From: Escherichia phage vB_EcoM-G157lw
Strand: one strand, 5' to 3'
DNA length: 64,000 nt
Sequence record: OK331996.1
The position numbers were made by a program, and so were the translations under genes. Every line of letters starts with the position of its first letter. Position 1 is the first letter of the stretch. Of this stretch, positions 2,097 through 28,384 are shown piece by piece. The notes beneath the pieces were generated by a model that was given only the letters and a program-made list of their open reading frames with translations, was not told the origin of the DNA and did no database searches.

Positions 2097-5000
2097 CTAT
2101 TTTAACCTGTGTTGGATTTTCAGGGTCTCTTGGATTTCCTATATTATCTTTTAGACGTTTATTAACTAAATCTCTAAATTGCGCAAATGTTGTTCCAGAT
2201 GCATCAAATAAAGGACTCATTAATTTACGTCGTTCAGACGGCAATTGACCTTGAAATATTGAATTATTATTTTCAGCATTATAGTCATCAGGAAGAGGAT
2301 ATTCTACACCAGCCATTGGGCCAGGCTCATAAATTGCTTCGCCTGTTACTGAATCATGCTCAATTTCACCGGTTGGAGTTAATTTAGCTACTCTATCAGC
2401 ATATTCAGTAGGCAATCCAGAATCCCATTTATAGTTTTTGTATTTATTAATTATAGTCTCTGTGTGTTTAAGAGTTAAACCAACATTAATAAACATCGTT
2501 AAAAGGGTAATTGCTATAAATCCAAATCCTACTGGATGAACAAAACGAATAACGTCAGATTTCCAACGGGAAGAAGGTAAATTGGATTTAATTTTCATTA
2601 CATAGTATGATCTACTTCTATTAATATAGTCTATATTGTTTTGAAGCAAATCCTTTCCTTTAACCCCACGAATAATTTCGCCTTCAAAACCAGGGAGTCT
2701 TTCTGCTTTAACTTCTTGACCAGCAATTAATCGTCCTAAAAGATTATGAATAGTTACGGTCCATTGCAATTTACCATTAGAATAGCTTCTTTCTATATAA
2801 GTAACATTACATCTTCCTGTTGCCGTATAAATCGTTTGTCCTACTAAATCTTCAGTCAAAGAATCAGATTGAACGATTATGTCATATTCAGTACCGGCCC
2901 CAGATTCAATTTCAATTTCAACTTCTTCATTATAAAGAACTTTAAAAAGAAACTTGTATGATGCTTCAATTCCTTTAGTAGAATAAAAATCATAGCTACG
3001 TGATTCAAAGAATCTCGCAACAGCATCACGTTTATCAGCATTTAAATAAATGTTTCTTTTATATATCTCTGACCACAAATATTCCCACGCATGCTCTTCT
3101 CGTGGATATTGGTTACGAATTAAATTTCGTAAATTGTTATACTGAGTTCCATATCCGTCAGAAAGATATTGAATATATGCTTCACAAAATGCCTCAAAAT
3201 TAGAATCTTGTAACAAGTAAGAATCAGGCATCATTGTGCCAATCAATGGTCTTAAATCAGGGTCAGCTAATCCACGTTCTTCTTCTGGTGACCAAGGAGT
3301 TTCGCGCTCTTGGTTTTGTAAAAATGCTTTTAAAAATACTTCAGTTGGCTTCCAAATAATTTCTACTGTATCTCTCACACGATAGTTAAAATCATAATAA
3401 GAAATTATTTCGCCAGAAGATTTGTAGAAAAGCATTCCTGATGCGTATTTTTTAAATCCGGTGAATTTAACATTTGGCATTACTATCGTGCAATCACCAT
3501 CATCCCAGTATTCATGAACTAATCTATCTGGTGATGTTTCTGGAATATTTTCTATAACTTTAGTGTATTTTAAATCAGCATAAACTACTACAGCTCTATC
3601 AGAGTTGTTTATCCAACATCGTGTGTTAGATTTTTTAGACCAGTTAAAGAACGGTTCTGCGTAGTATTTCATTGGTTGAGGAGTAAAAGTCTCCCAATCA
3701 GATTTTTCATCCGCTATAAATGCCATCATATGATAATGCTTATCAGCTAACCATTCACGAGGAAATTCATATTTAACAGCACCGATTAACTGATATTTCA
3801 CCACAGTTTCAGGGTCATTAACAATGTTATCACTTAAAAATTTAAAATTACTCGAAGATAGAGAAACTAATTTACCGTCAGTTGACATATTCGCATATCC
3901 GGGTTGAATACGTCTTCTTTCTTCTTCGGTATTACCGAAAACTCTTTTCCACGTTTTCGTATCATGGTTTAAAACATATATTCCTTTATCAGCAGAATCA
4001 ATTATTTTTGATGTTCTAGGATTGGCATTTAATGTTTCAACTTCACCAATAATAAGAGCAAAAACTTTATCACCAACAGAATCCATTTTATAGCATACTG
4101 CTTTAGGATTTCCGGTTATAGTCATGGTATCAGGTTCAAAAAGTCTTTCCGAATATGTTGGAGATAATGGATCAGAATCTATAGGTGCATTACTCGTTTT
4201 TATGTATCTAACTTTGTCTCTGGCGACAACGTAAATGTAATCATCGGTGCAAGTAATAGCTTCTGCAATGCGGTATACATTCGCTGGTAAAGTCGCATAA
4301 GTGGCAAAAATTTCTACATCAAATCCTAAATGTAATTGGTCGCCAAGTTTAGCGAATGTTATATCCTGTGAACTGAATCTGACATCATCAGCTGACCATC
4401 TAACATCAGTAGATTTGCGGCCATAGAAAATCTTGTCGTATCCTAGAACGTATGTAGTGTTCGCAGATTGGTAATATACTGTCTTAGATAAAGGATATCC
4501 TACACGGTCATTGAAGAGCTTTACAGCTTTCCAGGTTTGTCCTTTATCATTAGATACTTTAACCACGGGTTGATAACGCTCAAAAAGATATAGAATCCCT
4601 TCTGATTCCATCAAATAAACTCGGTTAATATCCTTACATACTTGCTGAATGGAACCTTGTATTTCATGATACTCATTTTCACCAATAATAAAATTACTGA
4701 TTGATGAAACATCAACATATGATGGGCTGAATTGGAACGATTCATTCATCAATGCAGCCATTATAGTGTCATTATTAAAATTGACATAATTAGAATTGTT
4801 AAGAGTAAACTTTTCCTGAATGAATTTATTGGCTAATTGCATTTCAATCATGTTTTGAAATGTGTAAGCATTCGTAGCAAAAGTTTCAAACTCTTCAGTA
4901 TAAATCCAATCAGACTGCTCAAAATCCTGCGCAGCTGTAGCTACTCTAATAATGTACGATGTTAATGGATTAGCATTATCAAAAAAGAAGCTGTTATTTG

Positions 5001-5187
5001 CAGTATATCCTAAGTTAATCCATCTGTATTGATTGCTCGGGAGATTTTCTCCCGAGTTTGTTTTTGTCTCAGCGATTTCTACAAAATAGTAGAAATTAGC
5101 ACCAACGTCATCCCAGCGTACTTGCACCTGATTTGCGGATAACTTGGAAATTCTGAGACTAGTGACTGAAGGTGCTTTTACTGTCAT
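2089..5187 (-). CDS. 7: baseplate wedge initiator gp7
   Basis: 1032 aa, size and position as T4 gp7. Confidence 0.9.
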   Translation of the reverse strand: MTVKAPSVTSLRISKLSANQVQVRWDDVGANFYYFVEIAETKTNSGENLPSNQYRWINLGYTANNSFFFDNANPLTSYIIRVATAAQDFEQSDWIYTEEFETFATNAYTFQNMIEMQLANKFIQEKFTLNNSNYVNFNNDTIMAALMNESFQFSPSYVDVSSISNFIIGENEYHEIQGSIQQVCKDINRVYLMESEGILYLFERYQPVVKVSNDKGQTWKAVKLFNDRVGYPLSKTVYYQSANTTYVLGYDKIFYGRKSTDVRWSADDVRFSSQDITFAKLGDQLHLGFDVEIFATYATLPANVYRIAEAITCTDDYIYVVARDKVRYIKTSNAPIDSDPLSPTYSERLFEPDTMTITGNPKAVCYKMDSVGDKVFALIIGEVETLNANPRTSKIIDSADKGIYVLNHDTKTWKRVFGNTEEERRRIQPGYANMSTDGKLVSLSSSNFKFLSDNIVNDPETVVKYQLIGAVKYEFPREWLADKHYHMMAFIADEKSDWETFTPQPMKYYAEPFFNWSKKSNTRCWINNSDRAVVVYADLKYTKVIENIPETSPDRLVHEYWDDGDCTIVMPNVKFTGFKKYASGMLFYKSSGEIISYYDFNYRVRDTVEIIWKPTEVFLKAFLQNQERETPWSPEEERGLADPDLRPLIGTMMPDSYLLQDSNFEAFCEAYIQYLSDGYGTQYNNLRNLIRNQYPREEHAWEYLWSEIYKRNIYLNADKRDAVARFFESRSYDFYSTKGIEASYKFLFKVLYNEEVEIEIESGAGTEYDIIVQSDSLTEDLVGQTIYTATGRCNVTYIERSYSNGKLQWTVTIHNLLGRLIAGQEVKAERLPGFEGEIIRGVKGKDLLQNNIDYINRSRSYYVMKIKSNLPSSRWKSDVIRFVHPVGFGFIAITLLTMFINVGLTLKHTETIINKYKNYKWDSGLPTEYADRVAKLTPTGEIEHDSVTGEAIYEPGPMAGVEYPLPDDYNAENNNSIFQGQLPSERRKLMSPLFDASGTTFAQFRDLVNKRLKDNIGNPRDPENPTQVKIDE

Positions 5188-7166
5188 TGTGATATAGGCT
5201 CCAAATCGATAGTTAAGTATTGTGGACGTAAATCATTTTCAAATACAATCAGTGAACCATCGCGCGTGAAAATAACATCGTCTATTGGATCAGAATATAG
5301 CTCAATAGTCTGAACCTCAAATTTATCGGATGTTAAATTAATTTTAGCGATATTCCAATAAATCATGTCAGCTGGATAATTTATTTCACCGATAACATAG
5401 TATTTGTCACGTCCATCGGAACTTGCTAATTTATTAAAATCATTGCCTGTATATGGCTGAATGTTTTCATTTTCTGTAACATCGCCAGAAGCAAATGGAC
5501 CAATAATAACTTTGCCAATTCCTTTAGAATCTCGGTCTGTTGATACTATATGAACGTCATATAATACATCTTCTTCTAAACCAGTATCAGGATTTACAAC
5601 CTTTCGTCCAGAATTAAATGAAAACGTATTAGATTCCATAGAACGATCTTTTATTTGATTATTGTATTTAATACCCGCTTCAGGCGTTTTATAGAAGTTT
5701 TGTACTTCACGAACCATTTGAATAGTCGCTGATGAACCAATGACAGAATGATCTGCATCATCTACATATGTCAACATCTTAGATTTAGCGAAAGATGAGT
5801 TAAAAATTTCTACATCTTCTGTATAATAGCGATCAATTTTATCAATTATTTGACCTTCAAGCCATTGCTCGGATTCTTGCAGTTTATTTAAAGCATATGT
5901 GACTTTTAAATTAGTCTTAATAAAAAGATAATTAGGAGAAATAATTGATGGCGTAATAGGAGCTAAATTATAGTCTTTGAGATAATTTTTAATATCTTCA
6001 CGCTGTACGGTAGTTAAATACAGACCTGATTTAGGTTTGGCAGCAATGAATGCATACCCAGGTTTAGTAGAATCAGTGAAAGTTTGAACAGCTTGAATAA
6101 TAGAACCAAATCTTTCTGAGACAAATGTATCATAATCTGTCGCAGTTACACATCGCTGCTGAGTTTCACGCTTAATAGTACCCAATTCACGAATACGTTC
6201 AATATCTTCTGGATCACCACCACCATCAGCACCAACAAAATCTGGGTCATCGTTTGGATTTTCATTAATATTGATGACAGTTATATTTGTTAATGTATCT
6301 GCATATGAAAATCCGACTGCGCCATTCGCATCTGCACCGTTAGTACTGATGTACTCAATAACAATCGTAGAGTTCTGGGTAGGTTTAAGACCTCCGATAT
6401 AATTAGCGGTCAAAGCTCCTTCAGAAGCATTAACAGAAATTTCACCTTCGCCAAAATAGAATTCAGTGTTTCCATCAATAGTTTCACGCATGTAGTAAAT
6501 TGTTGATGTAGAACCAGCATGGACCATTGACTTTCTTGTCCAGTTAATCCATTCCGCTCCATCAACATATAATTTAACCTGGTTTCTATCAATATTTTTA
6601 TCATAAATGATAATAGGTGTTAATTTATCATAAATGATTTCAGTTCTTACTATACGTCCCTGGGCCAATTTCAATCGTGGAAAATATTGGTTATTTTTAT
6701 CACGAATAGCAATAACATCTTCGGTAGATACAAAGTTATAAGGATTAACAGAAGTATCCTTTGCATATGCTAAAAAGCGAGTTCCGCGAGGAATAGTAAT
6801 GTAATTCCTATTCAATGCGTCGGTGCATGTTAACATAATTTCGGTCTGCGCAGCGGATTTTGAAGTAGGTAAATATCCGTTATCTTGTGCAGCTTGAACA
6901 ACTGAACTTCGTAAGTTAGCAGTACGCATAAAGCTTTCATACACAGCAGCATTACCAAACTGCTGAATGTACAGCGTATTATAAGCCAAAAGGTCGCACA
7001 GAACGTTTAATCTTGAGCCTTCAAAATCATAATCCAAAAATTCATTTTGGCCATTAAGCCATTCAATGAGGTTTTGTTTTATTTCAGCAAACGTACCCCC
7101 GACGAATATCTCGGGAATAGCATTTGCTGTTCTTGTTAATTGATAATTTACAGGGGTATTTGCCAT
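5184..7166 (-). CDS. 6: baseplate wedge subunit gp6
   Basis: 660 aa, size and position as T4 gp6. Confidence 0.9.
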   Translation of the reverse strand: MANTPVNYQLTRTANAIPEIFVGGTFAEIKQNLIEWLNGQNEFLDYDFEGSRLNVLCDLLAYNTLYIQQFGNAAVYESFMRTANLRSSVVQAAQDNGYLPTSKSAAQTEIMLTCTDALNRNYITIPRGTRFLAYAKDTSVNPYNFVSTEDVIAIRDKNNQYFPRLKLAQGRIVRTEIIYDKLTPIIIYDKNIDRNQVKLYVDGAEWINWTRKSMVHAGSTSTIYYMRETIDGNTEFYFGEGEISVNASEGALTANYIGGLKPTQNSTIVIEYISTNGADANGAVGFSYADTLTNITVININENPNDDPDFVGADGGGDPEDIERIRELGTIKRETQQRCVTATDYDTFVSERFGSIIQAVQTFTDSTKPGYAFIAAKPKSGLYLTTVQREDIKNYLKDYNLAPITPSIISPNYLFIKTNLKVTYALNKLQESEQWLEGQIIDKIDRYYTEDVEIFNSSFAKSKMLTYVDDADHSVIGSSATIQMVREVQNFYKTPEAGIKYNNQIKDRSMESNTFSFNSGRKVVNPDTGLEEDVLYDVHIVSTDRDSKGIGKVIIGPFASGDVTENENIQPYTGNDFNKLASSDGRDKYYVIGEINYPADMIYWNIAKINLTSDKFEVQTIELYSDPIDDVIFTRDGSLIVFENDLRPQYLTIDLEPISQ

Positions 7167-20456: not shown

Positions 20457-20937
20457 TTTTAAAAACTCGCTGGTATGATTTAGATGATGGGGATGATGGC
20501 ATTTCAGTTGATAGAGTTGACTGGAATGGTTGTTCCGAAGATATGAAAAATTTGTTGATTAGGGAGTTTAGAATGGGATATCAAGCAGCTAAGCCATCTA
20601 TTATAACAGATGATAAATTCGTGTGTATTCATAATGGTCGCGCTAAGTTAACGAACGCTGATTGGTTCACAGATAAAATTATGATTCTGTGGTATATTAT
20701 TAGTCTTCCTGTGACATCATTCGTATTTTACTTTTTTATAAAAAATCCAATGGACAGAATAGGAGATTGGATTCTTTTAACCATACTTGTTAATATTTTT
20801 ACTGCAGCAATATTATCTGGGATATGGTGCGTGTTCATTGAAATGCCATGGCGGCTACGCAGACAGCAAAAGATTTTTGATGAAAAGAAATACACTCAAA
20901 ATTTAAATAACTTTATCACTGAATGCAGGAAATTAAA

Positions 20938-20941
<4 letters not shown>
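20453..20941 (+). CDS. small membrane protein, paralog family member C
   Basis: 162 aa, TM helices, C-terminus NFITECRKLK; ATGA overlap with previous gene. Confidence 0.6.
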
Positions 20942-21910
<969 letters not shown>

Positions 21911-23848: not shown

Positions 23849-24069
23849 TGGCAAAGATAATTATTGAAGGTTCTAAAGATGTGCTAAATGCTTTCGCAGA
23901 ATGGTTTAGTAATTCAGGCGAACAGCAATTTAATGAAGCGTGGAACATGGGTGATATTAATGGAATTTATCCTACGACAGAAATTTCTGTTCAAGGATAT
24001 GGCATTCATGAACCTATTCGTTTAGTTGAATATGATTTATGTACTGGTGAGGAAGTCAAATATGATTGA
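23848..24069 (+). CDS. hypothetical protein
   Basis: 73 aa, ATGA junction. Confidence 0.5.
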   Translation: MAKIIIEGSKDVLNAFAEWFSNSGEQQFNEAWNMGDINGIYPTTEISVQGYGIHEPIRLVEYDLCTGEEVKYD

Positions 24070-24328
24070 AGACATTAAAGGTTATAAGCCGCATACTGAA
24101 GAGAAAATCGGTAAAGTGAATGCTATTAAAGACGCTGAAGTTCGTTTAGGACTTATCTTTGACGCTTTATACGATGAATTCTGGGAAGCACTAGATAATT
24201 GTGAAGATGATGAACTCGCGAAGAATTATGCTGAAAGCCTCGATCAGTTAACTATTGCTAAAACGAAACTCAAAGAAGCCAGTATGTGGGCTTGTCGTGC
24301 AGTGTTCAAACCAGAGGAAAAATACTAA
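24062..24328 (+). CDS. hypothetical small acidic protein
   Basis: ATG 24062 after GGTGAGGAAG; 88 aa. Confidence 0.5.
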
Positions 24329-24606
24329 TGGCGCAATTAAGTGCAGGGTTTGGTTATGAGTATTATACTGCACCTCGTCGTGTATCTGCCGCTTCTAAGA
24401 AAATTCAAAGTCTTGATGACTTCCAGGAAGTAGTCCGTAAAGCTTTTCAGGACTATGCACGTTATCTTAAAGAAGATTCACAGGACTGTCTCGAAGAAGA
24501 TGAAATTGCTTACTATGAGCAGCGTCTTGAACAGCTTAAAAACTTACATGAGGTTCGTGCAGAAGTTTCAAAGTCTATGAATAAATTGATTAGATTTAAA
24601 GAATAA
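24328..24606 (+). CDS. hypothetical small protein
   Basis: ATG 24328 (TAATG overlap); 92 aa. Confidence 0.5.
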
Positions 24607-24608
24607 CT

Positions 24609-24646
24609 GTTTACTTTTCCTCTTGACTGTGGTATAATTTTTCTAT
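24609..24646 (+). promoter_or_regulatory. early promoter GTTTAC ... TGGTATAAT
   Basis: consensus-like -35 and extended -10, 20 nt before regB RBS. Confidence 0.6.
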
Positions 24647-24665
24647 CAGTTAAGAGGAGAATAAC

Positions 24666-25127
24666 ATGACTATCAATACAGAAGTTTTTATCCGTCGAAA
24701 TAAGCTTCGTCGTCACTTTGAGTCGGAGTTTCGTCAAATTAACAATGAGATTCGTGAGGCATCAAAAGCAGCAGGGGTCTCATCGTTTCATCTAAAATAT
24801 TCTCAGCATCTTCTTGATCGTGCAATTCAACGGGAGATTGATGAGACATATGTTTTTGAATTATTCCATAAAATAAAAGATCATGTTTTAGAAGTTAATG
24901 AATTCCTGAGTATGCCTCCGCGTCCTGACATTGACGAGGATTTTATTGATGGGGTTGAATATCGTCCTGGACGTTTAGAAATCACAGATGGAAATCTTTG
25001 GCTTGGATTTACAGTTTGTAAGCCTAATGAGAAGTTCAAAAACCCGTCACTTCAATGCAGGATGGCAATTATCAACAGTCGTCGTTTACCAGGAAAGGCT
25101 TCTAAAGCAGTAATTAAAACTCAATGA
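24666..25127 (+). CDS. regB: RegB-like sequence-specific endoribonuclease
   Basis: 153 aa MTINTEVFIRRNKLRRHFESEF...; size and position of T4 regB. Confidence 0.65.
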   Translation: MTINTEVFIRRNKLRRHFESEFRQINNEIREASKAAGVSSFHLKYSQHLLDRAIQREIDETYVFELFHKIKDHVLEVNEFLSMPPRPDIDEDFIDGVEYRPGRLEITDGNLWLGFTVCKPNEKFKNPSLQCRMAIINSRRLPGKASKAVIKTQ

Positions 25128-25134
25128 GGTAAAC

Positions 25135-25680
25135 ATGAGAAAAGCACTACTCGCTGGTCTATTGGCCATTTCAATGATGGCACATAGCTCCGAGCATACT
25201 TTCAGTAATGTCCAACTCGATAACATGCGTTACGCGTATCAATTCGGGGAACAATTTTCTAAGGATGGAAAATATAAAACACACAAAAATATCCACAAGA
25301 GCGGATTAGGTCATATAATGGCTGCTATTTTATGGCAAGAAAGCTCTGGCGGAGTTAATTTAAAATCTAAACCAAAGCATCACGCCTATGGAATGTTCCA
25401 AAATTATTTGCCTACTATGCGAGCAAGAGTTAAGGAACTTGGTTATAATATGACCGATGCTGAAATAAAAAGAATGTTGAATAAACGGTCCAATTCAGCT
25501 TCCTGGGCGTACATTGAACTTTCTTATTGGTTAAATATACATAAGGGCGATATAAGAAAAGCAATATCCTCTTATAATTCGGGATGGAATGTTAAAGCAG
25601 GTTCTAAATATGCTTCTGAAGTCCTAGAAAAGGCTAATTACCTTAAAAATAATAAACTTTTGGAAATAGTAAATGACTAA
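25135..25680 (+). CDS. secreted lytic-transglycosylase-like (SLT domain) protein
   Basis: signal peptide MRKALLAGLLAISMMAHS; motif WQESSGG ... YGMFQ. Confidence 0.55.
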   Translation: MRKALLAGLLAISMMAHSSEHTFSNVQLDNMRYAYQFGEQFSKDGKYKTHKNIHKSGLGHIMAAILWQESSGGVNLKSKPKHHAYGMFQNYLPTMRARVKELGYNMTDAEIKRMLNKRSNSASWAYIELSYWLNIHKGDIRKAISSYNSGWNVKAGSKYASEVLEKANYLKNNKLLEIVND

Positions 25681-26014
25681 AATTTTGGTTTTATGTATAG
25701 GATTAATTTCATTTTCTGCGTTAGCAGATACATCATATACTGAAATTAGAGAGTATGTAAACCGTACTGCAGCGGATTATTGCGGGAAAAATAAAGCATG
25801 CCAAGCTGAATTTGCGCAGAAATTAATATATGCATATAAAGACGGAGAAAGAGATAAATCAAGCAGATACAAAAATGATACATTGTTAAAACGATATGCT
25901 AAAAAGTGGAATACCTTAGAATGTTCAGTTGCGGAGGAGAAAGATAAAGCCGCTTGTCATTCAATGGTTGACCGTTTGGTAGATTCTTATAATCGAGGAT
26001 TGAGTACTAGATGA
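25673..26014 (+). CDS. secreted hypothetical protein
   Basis: 113 aa; signal peptide MTKILVLCIGLISFSALA; several Cys. Confidence 0.55.
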   Translation: MTKILVLCIGLISFSALADTSYTEIREYVNRTAADYCGKNKACQAEFAQKLIYAYKDGERDKSSRYKNDTLLKRYAKKWNTLECSVAEEKDKAACHSMVDRLVDSYNRGLSTR

Positions 26015-26490
26015 TTGTAAAATATATCAAGGGCGATATTGTCGCCCTATTTCTTCAAGGTAATATTATTGCGCACGGGTGCAATTGTTTTCATACTATG
26101 GGTTCAGGTGTAGCGGGTCAATTAGCAAGAGCCTATCCCAAAATTTTAGAAATAGATAAAACCACTACTGAGTACGGTTCTCGTGATAAATTAGGCGATA
26201 TGTCTATTATTTTTAAACATAAACCTAATGGTTTTGGCATATGTTATAACTTGTATACGCAATACGAACCAGGTCCTAATCTTGATTATGGTGCTTTAGT
26301 AAACTGCATGATAGAATTAAATCTACAGGCAGAAACCCTTTTGTTTAAACCAGTAATTTACATTCCACGCATAGGTTGTGGTATTGCTGGCGGCGATTGG
26401 GATAAGGTTTCTAAATTAATCGACATGTTTACTCCTGATATTGATTTAATAGTGGTGGATTATGAAAGTACATTACCCACATCCGTTTGA
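26011..26490 (+). CDS. macro-domain-like protein (candidate ADP-ribose binding/hydrolase)
   Basis: 159 aa; KGDIV..IAHGCNCFHTMGSGVAGQLA resembles macro-domain N-x(6)-GGGV motif. Confidence 0.5.
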   Translation: MIVKYIKGDIVALFLQGNIIAHGCNCFHTMGSGVAGQLARAYPKILEIDKTTTEYGSRDKLGDMSIIFKHKPNGFGICYNLYTQYEPGPNLDYGALVNCMIELNLQAETLLFKPVIYIPRIGCGIAGGDWDKVSKLIDMFTPDIDLIVVDYESTLPTSV

Positions 26491-26674
26491 TCCTAAAAAC
26501 AAAGTGGAAATTATTCGTCAATGGGAACGCATTTGCCGTACTAAATGTCCAATTAATAGTCCACATGATGTAGATAAAGACTACATTGGAACATTCGTTG
26601 AATATACCTTTATTGATAAGAAAGGTCGTAAACAACATGTAGAAGAATATTGCTTAAAGGTTACATGGTTATGA
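26462..26674 (+). CDS. hypothetical protein
   Basis: 70 aa ORF, overlaps upstream gene end. Confidence 0.4.
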   Translation: MKVHYPHPFDPKNKVEIIRQWERICRTKCPINSPHDVDKDYIGTFVEYTFIDKKGRKQHVEEYCLKVTWL

Positions 26675-26877
26675 GCCAAACTAGTATTCTTAAAAATGCC
26701 CACTGTGAAAAGTGTAAGTGGCCTGTTGTTTTTGCTTTATGTAATGATGAAATGGCTTGTGATTTCGATTATTGGTGCTATTGTTCTAATAAAGGATGCA
26801 TCAATCATAAAGGTGAAGGATTTTATTCGGGATTTTATCCTTATCCTGATTTCGTTAAAGAAGGTAAACCAAAATGA
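26671..26877 (+). CDS. Cys-rich small protein (putative zinc binding)
   Basis: ATG 26671 ATGA-coupled; 68 aa with about 9 Cys incl CEKCKW. Confidence 0.5.
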   Translation: MSQTSILKNAHCEKCKWPVVFALCNDEMACDFDYWCYCSNKGCINHKGEGFYSGFYPYPDFVKEGKPK

Positions 26878-27050
26878 ATGATGATTTAAAATATCAATTA
26901 TTACGTGAACTTGATGTTTTGATTGAACTTTCTGCACAAAAAGGATTTATAATTGGATCGGGTCAAAAAGACCCCAACGGTCATTCAATCGTAGCGGTTA
27001 TGAATCAGAAACGAGTCATTTTAAAACTTTTGGGGATTGACATACTGTGA
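26874..27050 (+). CDS. hypothetical small protein
   Basis: 58 aa, ATGA-coupled; not in ORF track (under 60 aa). Confidence 0.4.
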   Translation: MNDDLKYQLLRELDVLIELSAQKGFIIGSGQKDPNGHSIVAVMNQKRVILKLLGIDIL

Positions 27051-27232
27051 GCCTAAGCAAAGAACAAAAAGATAAATTGTTTGAGCTTATCCATGAACTT
27101 CTAGATGAGCATGCAGAAGCAAACACCTTTTATGATGAATACGGCCCGCTATCTCCCGAACAGCAGGAAGAATTTGCTGATCGGTTTGATAAGAAAGAAA
27201 ATGAATTAATAGCTTATGTGAATACGCTTTAA
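27047..27232 (+). CDS. hypothetical acidic small protein (GTG start)
   Basis: 61 aa; GTGA overlap with previous stop. Confidence 0.4.
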   Translation: MSLSKEQKDKLFELIHELLDEHAEANTFYDEYGPLSPEQQEEFADRFDKKENELIAYVNTL

Positions 27233-27241
27233 GAAGGTGAT

Positions 27242-27823
27242 ATGGCGAGTTTAATTTTTACTTATGCAGCAATGAATGCTGGAAAATCTGCTTCTCTTTT
27301 GACTGCTGCACATAATTATAAAGAACGTGGAATGAGTGTATTAGTTCTTAAGCCTGCTATTGATACTCGCGATTCTGTCTGTGAAGTTGTTTCTCGCATT
27401 GGAATTAAACAGGAAGCGAATATTATTACAGATGATATGGATATTTTCGAGTTCTATAAATGGGCTGAAGCACAAAAAGATATTCATTGCGTATTTGTAG
27501 ATGAAGCTCAGTTTTTAAAAACTGAACAGGTGCACCAATTAAGCCGAATTGTTGATACATATAATGTTCCTGTTATGGCTTATGGATTAAGGACTGATTT
27601 CGCTGGAAAATTGTTTGAAGGTTCTAAAGAACTTTTAGCGATTGCAGATAAACTTATTGAACTAAAGGCAGTTTGTCATTGCGGCAAAAAAGCGATTATG
27701 ACAGCTCGATTAATGGAAGATGGAACACCAGTTAAAGAAGGTAATCAAATCTGTATTGGTGATGAAATTTATGTTTCTTTGTGCAGAAAACATTGGAATG
27801 AATTAACTAAAAAGCTTGGTTAG
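27242..27823 (+). CDS. tk: thymidine kinase
   Basis: 193 aa, P-loop AMNAGKS, MASLIFTYAAM... matches T4 tk. Confidence 0.9.
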   Translation: MASLIFTYAAMNAGKSASLLTAAHNYKERGMSVLVLKPAIDTRDSVCEVVSRIGIKQEANIITDDMDIFEFYKWAEAQKDIHCVFVDEAQFLKTEQVHQLSRIVDTYNVPVMAYGLRTDFAGKLFEGSKELLAIADKLIELKAVCHCGKKAIMTARLMEDGTPVKEGNQICIGDEIYVSLCRKHWNELTKKLG

Positions 27824-27865
27824 TGCAAAAGTTATAAATAGGTTTATCTAACTAAAGGGGTATAT

Positions 27866-28078
27866 ATGCTACAATTAACTGAAAAGCAACTTCGCAATCT
27901 TACTGTGCTTCAATTAGATGAAATTCGTAGGGAAGTTGGAAATATCATTTCAGCTTTGCGTCGAGAAGTATCACTCAACCAATCTCCGGCAGACTATACT
28001 AGATTGCGAAATTTTGAAAAATACCTTGATAAAGTTAAGGCCGTGCATCGGCATAAAGTAAATACAGGACAAAAATGA
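27866..28078 (+). CDS. hypothetical protein (rI.1 position)
   Basis: 70 aa, RBS AAGGGG. Confidence 0.55.
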
Positions 28079-28090
28079 TAGGAGGCCTTT

Positions 28091-28384
28091 ATGGCCTTAA
28101 AAGCAACGGCACTATTTGCCATGCTAGGATTGTCATTTGTTTTATCTCCATCGATTGAAGCGAATGTCGATCCTCATTTTGATAAATTTATGGAATCTGG
28201 TATTAGGCACGTTTATATGCTTTTTGAAAATAAAAGCGTAGAATCGTCTGAACAATTCTATAGTTTTATGAGAACGACCTATAAAAATGACCCGTGCTCT
28301 TCTGATTTTGAATGTATAGAACGAGGCGCGGAGATGGCACAATCATACGCTAGAATTATGAACATTAAATTGGAGACTGAATGA
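28091..28384 (+). CDS. rI: lysis inhibition regulator RI (antiholin)
   Basis: 97 aa with N-terminal signal-anchor MALKATALFAMLGLSFVLSPSIEA; adjacent to tk as in T4. Confidence 0.8.
   Translation: MALKATALFAMLGLSFVLSPSIEANVDPHFDKFMESGIRHVYMLFENKSVESSEQFYSFMRTTYKNDPCSSDFECIERGAEMAQSYARIMNIKLETE

What the first reader, a model, noticed from the sequence alone, without database searches (positions are those of the whole stretch)
26011..26490. Macro-domain-like protein in the tk-proximal accessory cluster
The 159-aa protein begins KYIKGDIV ... IAHGCNCFHTMGSGVAGQLA, resembling the macro-domain ADP-ribose binding/hydrolase core (N-x(6)-GGGV). T4-type phages use ADP-ribosylation themselves, and hosts use ADP-ribosylating toxins such as DarT against phage DNA. 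A phage macro domain is a plausible eraser on either side.
Basis: partly seen in the sequence, partly recalled or inferred. Interest (0 to 1): 0.55.

Follow-up and report, generated by a model that had tools for sequence, protein, structure and literature searches.

The report
Phage macrodomain gene tk.4/adfM, anti-DarT2

Summary

T4 tk.4 was the single transposon-screen hit on a DarTG2 host. Its knockout sensitises T4 to DarTG2, and it was named adfM (bioRxiv 10.1101/2025.11.20.689424).

What this work adds:
- The window carries a different allele, 57% identical to T4's, set in flanks about 97-100% identical in DNA. This allele is the one that matches the family consensus.
- The family has Gln at the catalytic Lys position of DarG and TARG1, as in SCO6735, which cleaves thymidine-linked ADP-ribose. 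PhiKZ "AdfM" is a true Lys-type DarG relative.
- NARP1-linked phage homologs have the gene layout of Adpp, an ADPR-1''-phosphate phosphatase, and keep the same residues. A phosphatase activity therefore cannot be excluded, although the window has no NARP1 partner genes.

The biochemistry of this allele is inferred, not shown.

The parts
26011..26490 (+). tk.4/adfM coding sequence: a 159-aa single-domain macrodomain protein
26074..26118 (+). Codons H22-G36 (HGCNCFHTMGSGVAG): active-site His and Asn plus the first phosphate-binding Gly loop
   Evidence: H22, G23, N25, C26, G33 and A35 are invariant in 51 homologs. H22 and N25 align with SCO6735 H24 and N27, and N25 aligns with DarG N22 and PhiKZ AdfM N23.
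26248..26262 (+). Codons N80-Q84 (NLYTQ): Gln at the position of the catalytic Lys of DarG (K80) and TARG1 (K84)
   Evidence: N80, Y82 and Q84 are invariant. Q84 aligns with SCO6735 Q85, TARG1 K84, DarG K80 and PhiKZ K78. SCO6735 Q85A and Q85E are inactive.
26365..26400 (+). Codons P119-W130 (PRIGCGIAGGDW): second Gly-rich, diphosphate/distal-ribose-binding loop
   Evidence: P119, G122, G124 and W130 are invariant, and A126, G127 and G128 are at least 90% conserved. The loop matches PRIGCGLAGG[K/T]W of BT1257 and SCO6735. T4 has the outlier GAGIGKGNW.
26055..26500 (+). Allelic cassette: a segment strongly diverged from T4 (35-80% DNA identity) between near-identical flanks
   Evidence: 40-nt identity profile against T4: about 95-100% in vs and in the first 45 nt of tk.4, 35-57% across 26154-26460, and about 100% again in tk.3 at 26541-26660.
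26011..26014 (+). ATGA overlap between the vs stop codon and the tk.4 start codon, an arrangement typical of translational coupling
   Evidence: Read directly from the sequence: vs runs 25673-26014 and tk.4 starts at 26011.
26462..26490 (+). 29-nt overlap of the tk.4 3' end with the tk.3 start. It encodes a low-confidence tail (YESTLPTSV) created by a 13-nt deletion relative to T4.
   Evidence: Alignment with T4. The last pLDDT block averages 68. tk.3 ORF at 26462-26674 matches Pfam DUF7202.

Best explanation
The gene is this phage's allele of T4 tk.4/adfM. It encodes a stand-alone, Gln-type ALC1-like macrodomain expressed with the regB-vs-tk pre-replicative gene cluster. During infection of a host carrying DarTG2, the DarT2 toxin ADP-ribosylates thymidines in single-stranded phage DNA and blocks replication. 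The macrodomain binds the ADP-ribose through its two Gly-rich loops and N25. With Q84 and H22 positioning the distal ribose and a water molecule, it hydrolyses the thymine-N3 to ribose-C1'' bond. This releases free ADP-ribose and restores unmodified DNA, so replication proceeds. Shown here: macro family membership, fold, conservation of the active-site residues, and orthology by synteny. Shown in the literature: T4 needs tk.4 on a DarTG2 host, and a Gln-type relative (SCO6735) cleaves dT-ADP-ribose and rescues cells from DarT. Inferred: that this 57%-identical allele has the same substrate and phenotype, and the catalytic mechanism.
Against: There is no biochemical or genetic datum for this allele. 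Even for T4 AdfM, removal of ADP-ribose from DNA is the authors' inference. The protein is acidic (pI 5.25). It lacks SCO6735's K34 and K89, which contribute to DNA-substrate activity, and it lacks that subclass's longer mobile loop. A NARP1-context homolog, 35-38% identical, has the same signature residues and the gene layout of Adpp, a proven ADPR-1''-phosphate phosphatase. Sequence motifs therefore cannot tell a DNA glycohydrolase from a small-molecule phosphatase. The DarG profiles score far below their family thresholds (27.3 bits against a cut-off of 250).
Confidence: 0.75

Rival explanations
1. The protein's main role is as an ADP-ribose-1''-phosphate phosphatase (Adpp/Poa1p-like). It would convert the ADPR-1''-P made by RES-domain NAD+ phosphorylase defences (aRES) into ADP-ribose. 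This is the activity implied by the old 'A1pp phosphatase' annotation.
Against: Adpp was shown to act as part of the three-gene Adps-Adpp-Namat operon, and inactivating or deleting any of the three genes abolished the anti-aRES effect. tblastn finds no Adps or Namat in the 64-kb window, in 43 kb of the near-identical phage ECO4, or in the T4 stretch examined. The syntenic T4 ortholog has a direct DarTG2 phenotype. The window protein is much closer to T4 Tk.4 (57%) than to the NARP1-context protein (35%). This could still be a secondary activity.
Confidence: 0.1
2. It neutralises DarT2 mainly by binding and inhibiting the toxin stoichiometrically, as an antitoxin mimic, and not by repairing the DNA.
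For: Catalytically dead SCO6735 Q85A, DarG K80A and TARG1 K84A all inhibit DarT in vitro, with SCO6735 the strongest. The sharp allelic divergence, concentrated outside the active-site motifs, is what one might expect from co-evolution of a protein-protein interface.
Against: The catalytic-site residues are invariant across 51 homologs down to about 40% identity, which argues that selection acts on enzymatic activity. The protein has no counterpart of the C-terminal DarT-binding domain of DarG2.
Confidence: 0.07
3. It reverses ADP-ribosylation of proteins or RNA. The targets would be marks written by the phage's own Alt, ModA and ModB transferases or by other host ADP-ribosylating toxins, or it would deacetylate O-acetyl-ADP-ribose.
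For: TARG1, a structural neighbour, removes protein-linked ADP-ribose. SCO6735 also acts on auto-modified PARP1. JGI names some homologs 'O-acetyl-ADP-ribose deacetylase (regulator of RNase III)'. T4-type phages encode ADP-ribosyltransferases (general knowledge, not tested here).
Against: Nothing here links Tk.4 to Alt or Mod. Those enzymes modify arginine, a linkage macrodomains are not known to cleave (general knowledge). TARG1's Lys/Asp catalytic dyad is absent, replaced by Q84 and A126. The JGI names are automatic COG-level labels. [quoted passage not shown]
Confidence: 0.05

Closest known systems
T4 Tk.4 = AdfM (anti-DarT factor Macrodomain), bioRxiv 10.1101/2025.11.20.689424
   Same: The genomic slot is the same, between vs and tk.3 and upstream of tk. 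Size is similar (159 vs 155 aa). Identity is 57% with no gaps. All family-invariant residues are shared, including H22, N25 and Q84. Both pass the Pfam Macro threshold.
   Different: It is a distinct allele. DNA identity falls to 35-57% inside the gene while the flanks are about 97-100% identical. The second Gly loop reads GCGIAGGDW here and GAGIGKGNW in T4. The C-terminal tail differs because of a 13-nt deletion. In the phage collection, 312 records carry an allele at least 90% identical to the window's and 224 carry one at least 90% identical to T4's. This allele has not been tested against DarTG2.
SCO6735 (Streptomyces coelicolor) and BT1257: the Gln-type subclass of ALC1-like macrodomains (PMC9411070)
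   Different: Identity is only 26-27%. The phage protein lacks the 5-6-residue longer 'mobile loop' and the lysines K34 and K89. It is acidic (pI 5.25 vs 9.7). It is encoded by a virus as a counter-defence gene, not as a cellular repair gene.
DarG2 antitoxin macrodomain and PhiKZ gp104 'AdfM' (PMC13309987)
   Different: These are Lys-type enzymes (FPTK, PPLG-GNGGL motifs), only 20-22% identical to the window protein. PhiKZ gp104 scores 132.9 bits on PADLOC DarG against 27.3 for the window protein, and it hits only DarG in the PDB. DarG2 also has a C-terminal DarT-binding domain and an adjacent darT gene, both absent here. The shared name AdfM therefore covers two different macrodomain lineages.
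Adpp, the NARP1-associated ADPR-1''-phosphate phosphatase of Vibrio phages (bioRxiv 10.64898/2026.01.28.702374), and yeast Poa1p
   Different: Adpp sits between Adps and Namat and works through NAD+ reconstitution. No such genes are in the window. The NARP1-context protein has the long mobile loop that the T4-type protein lacks. The substrate is a small molecule, not DNA.

Membership tests
Macro domain (Pfam PF01661) | Profile score above the curated gathering threshold | tested here: met
   33.4 bits against a cut-off of 22, E=4.9e-08, covering profile positions 2-117 of 118.
Macro domain (Pfam PF01661) | Three-layer alpha/beta/alpha macro fold | tested here: met
Macro domain (Pfam PF01661) | Two Gly-rich loops that clamp the diphosphate and distal ribose | tested here: met
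   G31-S-G33 and G122-C-G124-I-A-G127-G128 align with the corresponding loops of BT1257, SCO6735, TARG1 and DarG.
Macro domain (Pfam PF01661) | Binds ADP-ribose | not testable with these tools
   Needs ITC, a thermal-shift assay or a co-crystal structure.
Gln-type ALC1-like macrodomains (SCO6735/BT1257 subclass) | Gln replaces the catalytic Lys of DarG and TARG1, with the His24 and Asn27 equivalents present | tested here: met
   Q84, H22 and N25 are invariant in 51 homologs and align with SCO6735 Q85, H24 and N27.
Gln-type ALC1-like macrodomains (SCO6735/BT1257 subclass) | Mobile loop about five residues longer than in DarG and TARG1 | tested here: not met
   The window and T4 proteins have a short loop (QYEPGPN) where BT1257 and SCO6735 have QHGIYKDSKGLPP and QHGMKTGSKGAP.
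Gln-type ALC1-like macrodomains (SCO6735/BT1257 subclass) | Hydrolyses thymidine-linked ADP-ribose on ssDNA | not testable with these tools
   Needs a gel-shift assay on a DarT2-modified oligonucleotide.
AdfM of T4 (tk.4), anti-DarTG2 factor | Orthology: same genomic slot and full-length similarity to T4 Tk.4 | tested here: met
   Gene order regB, vs.1, vs, tk.4, tk.3, tk in both genomes. 57% identity over 155 aa, E=1e-69. Flanks are about 97-100% identical in DNA.
AdfM of T4 (tk.4), anti-DarTG2 factor | Required for plating on a DarTG2-expressing host | not testable with these tools
   Shown only for the T4 allele.
DarG2 antitoxin (NCBIfam NF048014, PADLOC DarG) | Score above the family cut-off | tested here: not met
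   27.3 bits against a curated cut-off of 250. PADLOC DarG gives 27.3 bits, against 132.9 for PhiKZ gp104.
DarG2 antitoxin (NCBIfam NF048014, PADLOC DarG) | Catalytic lysine (K80) in an FPTK motif | tested here: not met
   The position is Q84 in an NLYTQ motif.
DarG2 antitoxin (NCBIfam NF048014, PADLOC DarG) | C-terminal DarT-binding domain and an adjacent darT gene | tested here: not met
   The protein is 159 aa and matches only positions 2-142 of the 338-position DarG model. Its neighbours are vs and tk.3.
Adpp (NARP1-AP ADPR-1''-P phosphatase) | Encoded within or next to an Adps-Namat (NARP1) operon | tested here: not met
   tblastn with Kronos Adps and Namat finds nothing in the window at E<=0.1. 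The rest of this phage's genome was not available to test.
Adpp (NARP1-AP ADPR-1''-P phosphatase) | Dephosphorylates ADPR-1''-phosphate | not testable with these tools
   Needs an LC-MS assay. The signature residues are shared with a NARP1-context homolog, so the activity cannot be excluded.

The most novel reading that the evidence does not exclude
The T4-type Gln macrodomain is a general hydrolase for the ADP-ribose C1'' position and has two counter-defence activities: removing thymidine-linked ADP-ribose from DNA (anti-DarTG2) and dephosphorylating ADPR-1''-phosphate (anti-RES/aRES chemistry). On this reading, the discrete, sharply diverged alleles that replace one another between near-identical flanks in Tequatroviruses reflect tuning to different DarT2 variants, or to direct toxin binding, and not neutral drift. 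The two proteins both called AdfM (T4 Tk.4 and PhiKZ gp104) would then be independent recruitments of different macrodomain lineages to the same job.
Probability: 0.2. Interest if true: 0.5.

Novelty: already known. Interest (0 to 1): 0.25.

Why it matters
The finding confirms that sequence reading alone picked out a real anti-defence gene. The gene is ordinary for T4-like phages. About 2,750 of 50,697 phage records carry a homolog, many annotated as "macro domain protein" or "phosphatase", and its role against DarTG2 is already published for T4.

The useful residue concerns annotation and experimental design:
- T4-type AdfM is not a DarG-type (Lys) enzyme. It is a SCO6735-type (Gln) enzyme.
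- The name AdfM currently covers two proteins only about 20% identical with different catalytic residues.
- The same PHROG (335) also appears to include the NARP1-linked ADPR-1''-phosphate phosphatase lineage (Adpp), so transferring function by homology within this family is unsafe.
- T4's own allele is the outlier. The window's allele is the consensus form, so it is the better representative for biochemistry.

Tried and rejected
- **Own promoter for the gene.** The sigma-70-type scan of 24000-28200 found 15 sites against 16.2 +/- 3.1 in shuffles, so there is no signal. The gene starts in an ATGA overlap with vs and is probably co-transcribed with the cluster.
- **GC-rich hairpin at 26030-26048.** It sits inside the perfectly conserved 5' end of the gene and was flagged as terminator-like. 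The fold z-score is only -1.43, so I dropped it as a regulatory element.
- **Origin as an orphan DarG antitoxin.** The DarG profiles score far below their cut-offs, the catalytic Lys is absent, and a bacterial homolog (Pelagimonas, P0090) is a stand-alone gene with no DarT neighbour. I rejected this in favour of the SCO6735-like lineage.
- **NARP1 partnership.** No Adps or Namat was found in the window or in the ECO4 and T4 stretches held. The whole genome of this phage could not be checked.
- **Catalytic motifs as a discriminator between Adpp-type and AdfM-type members.** This failed because the NARP1-context protein shares all signature residues.
- **Technical dead ends.**
  - One search was too loose and returned macrophage papers.
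  - The term 'AdfM' also matches a journal DOI string.
  - Locus L003 was not available in the sandbox.
- **Not examined.** The minus-strand ORF at 26429-26638 (69 aa), which overlaps the gene's end, was not investigated.

Full report
**Observation.** An ATG at 26011 opens a 159-codon frame that ends with a TGA at 26488-26490 on the + strand, and the protein begins MIVKYIKGDIVALFLQGNIIAHGCNCFHTMGSGVAGQLA. Its start overlaps the stop of the upstream gene in an ATGA. Its last 29 nt overlap the start of the next gene. Thymidine kinase lies about 750 nt downstream on the same strand, at 27242-27823. The motif is N25-x5-G-S-G-V-A-G, not literally N-x6-GGGV, but it is the equivalent loop.

**What the protein is.** It passes Pfam's curated threshold for the Macro domain, with 33.4 bits against 22 over almost the whole model. 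It matches PHROG 335 'phosphatase' at 2.7e-71. By sequence it hits solved macrodomains: BT1257, yeast Poa1p, SCO6735, the M. tuberculosis DarG macrodomain and human TARG1. A profile built from 51 homologs raises these to E=3e-21 for BT1257, 3e-17 for SCO6735, 5e-17 for TARG1, 2e-14 for Poa1p and 1e-11 for DarG.

**Where it sits.** The window is a Tequatrovirus. The 3-kb stretch around the gene is 99.4% identical to phage Aplg8 and matches 749 phage records. In the T4 reference the same slot, in the order regB, vs.1, vs, tk.4, tk.3, tk.2, tk.1, tk, holds tk.4. That gene is annotated 'phosphatase; contains A1pp phosphatase motif'. Close relatives annotate this exact allele as 'phosphatase' or 'macro domain containing protein'. 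Homologs occur in about 2,760 of 50,697 phage records from many genera, and 793 protein clusters match in the large metagenomic collection.

**What is already known.**
- **T4 screen.** A 2025 preprint that mapped T4 gene essentiality by transposon sequencing found tk.4 as the single significant hit on a DarTG2-expressing host. It showed that a clean knockout sensitises T4 to DarTG2, and it named the gene adfM. The authors infer, but do not demonstrate, enzymatic removal of ADP-ribose from DNA.
- **Earlier hint.** Previous work had shown that T4 lacking adfA and adfN remains DarTG2-resistant and had predicted a further factor.
- **PhiKZ gp104.** Independently, this protein was also named AdfM. 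It was shown biochemically to remove DarT2's modification, and its active-site residues are given as N23 and K78.

**Orthology and the allele.**
- **Identity to T4.** The window protein is 57% identical to T4 Tk.4 over 155 residues without a gap. The DNA around it, however, is nearly identical to T4: about 95-100% through vs and the first 45 nt of tk.4, and about 100% again in tk.3.
- **Extent of the diverged block.** Identity inside the gene drops to 35-57%. This looks like an allelic cassette replaced by recombination. A second replaced block follows at about 26660-27240.
- **Allele counts.** In the phage collection, 312 records carry an allele at least 90% identical to the window's. 224 carry one at least 90% identical to T4's, and a further 159 are 80-90% identical to T4's.
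- **Which allele is canonical.** The two alleles differ mostly at positions that are poorly conserved in the family, with mean conservation 0.35 against 0.65 at shared positions. At the five well-conserved positions where they differ (A39, A126, G127, D129, I137), the window allele carries the family consensus and T4 is the outlier.

**Active site.** Fifteen positions are invariant in 51 homologs: G8, H22, G23, N25, C26, G33, A35, D49, N80, Y82, Q84, P119, G122, G124 and W130. The profile-to-PDB alignments and a MAFFT alignment agree that Q84 occupies the position of TARG1 K84, DarG K80 and PhiKZ K78. They also agree that it coincides with Gln85 of SCO6735 and the corresponding Gln of BT1257. 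H22 and N25 coincide with SCO6735 H24 and N27.

The SCO6735 study showed that this Gln-type enzyme cleaves thymidine-linked ADP-ribose from DNA faster than DarG or TARG1. It rescues cells from DarT, it is inactivated by Q85A/E, and it also inhibits DarT by direct interaction.

PhiKZ gp104 is a different case. It hits only DarG proteins in the PDB, at 90.7, 72.7 and 68 bits. It scores 132.9 bits on PADLOC's DarG model, against 36 for T4 Tk.4 and 27.3 for the window protein. It is only about 18-22% identical to the T4-type proteins. The two 'AdfM' proteins therefore come from different macrodomain lineages with different catalytic residues.

The T4-type protein is not a typical SCO6735 either. 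It lacks that subclass's longer mobile loop and its lysines K34 and K89, and it is acidic (pI 5.25 against 9.7). PhiKZ AdfM, which does act on DNA, is equally acidic.

**A real rival.** While surveying homologs I saw that in Vibrio phage Kronos the homolog lies between a 'ribose-phosphate pyrophosphokinase' and a 'nicotinate phosphoribosyltransferase'. A 2026 preprint shows that such Adps-macro-Namat operons (NARP1-AP) use the macrodomain, Adpp, as an ADPR-1''-phosphate phosphatase to defeat RES-domain NAD+ phosphorylase defences. [quoted passage not shown]

Kronos gp179 is 35-38% identical to the window protein and shares its signature residues. The motifs therefore cannot separate the two functions, and both reactions break a bond at the ribose C1'' position.

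Three points argue against the phosphatase role being primary here. Adpp was shown to work as part of a three-gene operon in which inactivating or deleting any gene abolished the anti-aRES effect, and neither Adps nor Namat is found in the window or in the ECO4 and T4 stretches examined. The syntenic T4 ortholog has a direct DarTG2 phenotype. The window protein is far closer to T4 Tk.4 than to the NARP1-context protein. A secondary phosphatase activity remains possible.

**Other checks.**
- The DarG antitoxin models are not met: 27.3 bits against a cut-off of 250, no C-terminal domain and no adjacent darT.
- A bacterial homolog is a stand-alone gene without DarT.
- A promoter scan gave no signal above shuffles, and a hairpin in the conserved 5' end is not significant.
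- Expression of the T2 ortholog's protein has been reported.

**Verdict.** The gene is this phage's allele of tk.4/adfM. It most likely works as a Gln-type macrodomain that hydrolyses DarT2-made thymidine-linked ADP-ribose on phage DNA (confidence about 0.75). The enzymology and the phenotype of this allele are inferred, not shown. The finding is already known in kind and in function, so interest is low (0.25). It adds modest points on lineage, allele structure and the risk of transferring function across PHROG 335.

Noticed in passing
L003 (Vibrio phage Kronos OQ095918) 3132-6138: The family homolog gp179 sits between an Adps-like 'ribose-phosphate pyrophosphokinase' and a Namat-like 'nicotinate phosphoribosyltransferase'. 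This is the NARP1-AP layout, in which the macrodomain (Adpp) was shown to be an ADPR-1''-phosphate phosphatase. gp179 shares all signature residues with the window protein, so PHROG 335 appears to mix two experimentally distinct counter-defence roles.
   Followed up: yes
window 26011-26490 compared with PhiKZ gp104 (sequence from PMC13309987): Two phage proteins both named AdfM (T4 Tk.4 and PhiKZ gp104) are only about 18-22% identical. They differ at the catalytic residue (Gln vs Lys) and belong to different macrodomain subclasses (SCO6735-like vs DarG-like).
   Followed up: yes
window 26660-27240: T4's tk.2/tk.1 block is replaced here by three unrelated small ORFs. ORF 26671-26877 matches Pfam Phage_zn_bind (PF23895, 101.7 bits). 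ORF 26874-27050 matches no family. ORF 27047-27232 matches DUF7438. DNA identity to T4 falls to 0-50% while tk.3 and tk on either side are about 95-100% identical.
   Followed up: partly
window 26434-26500: A 13-nt deletion relative to T4 just before the tk.3 start codon shifts the end of tk.4. The gene therefore reads 29 nt into tk.3 and gains a different, low-confidence tail (YESTLPTSV). The 159-aa form is common: cluster P0001, 95% identical, has 304 member sequences.
   Followed up: partly
window 26030-26048: A GC-rich 8-bp hairpin (AGGGCGAT-ATT-GTCGCCCT) followed by a T-rich run lies inside codons 7-13 of tk.4, in the stretch that is 100% identical to T4. The scan flagged it as terminator-like, but the fold z-score is only -1.43. 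The region 24000-28200 has 7 terminator-like sites against 2.6 +/- 1.8 in shuffles.
   Followed up: partly
window 20923-21378: A 151-aa ORF with a visible Nudix box ([23 protein letters not shown]) lies at the T4 NudE/e.1 position, about 5 kb upstream on the same strand. ECO4 annotates a 'nudix hydrolase' just upstream of its lysozyme-family gene, though the locus-to-window coordinate offset was not reconciled. From general knowledge, T4 NudE acts on ADP-ribose, which is the product a macrodomain would release. No link was tested.
   Followed up: no
window 25703-25710 (signal-peptide region of vs): The vs gene has a 6-nt (two-codon) deletion relative to T4 within its N-terminal hydrophobic segment. 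Otherwise it is about 97% identical to T4.
   Followed up: no
literature on the T2 tk.4 ortholog (bioRxiv 10.64898/2026.06.19.733364): RIL-seq found the host sRNA ArcZ paired with T2 tk.4 mRNA, and Tk.4 protein was detected in the T2 proteome. That paper labels tk.4 a 'putative thymidine kinase', which is a mis-annotation.
   Followed up: no
window 26429-26638, minus strand: A 69-aa ORF on the opposite strand overlaps the tk.4/tk.3 junction. There is no evidence that it is a gene.
   Followed up: no
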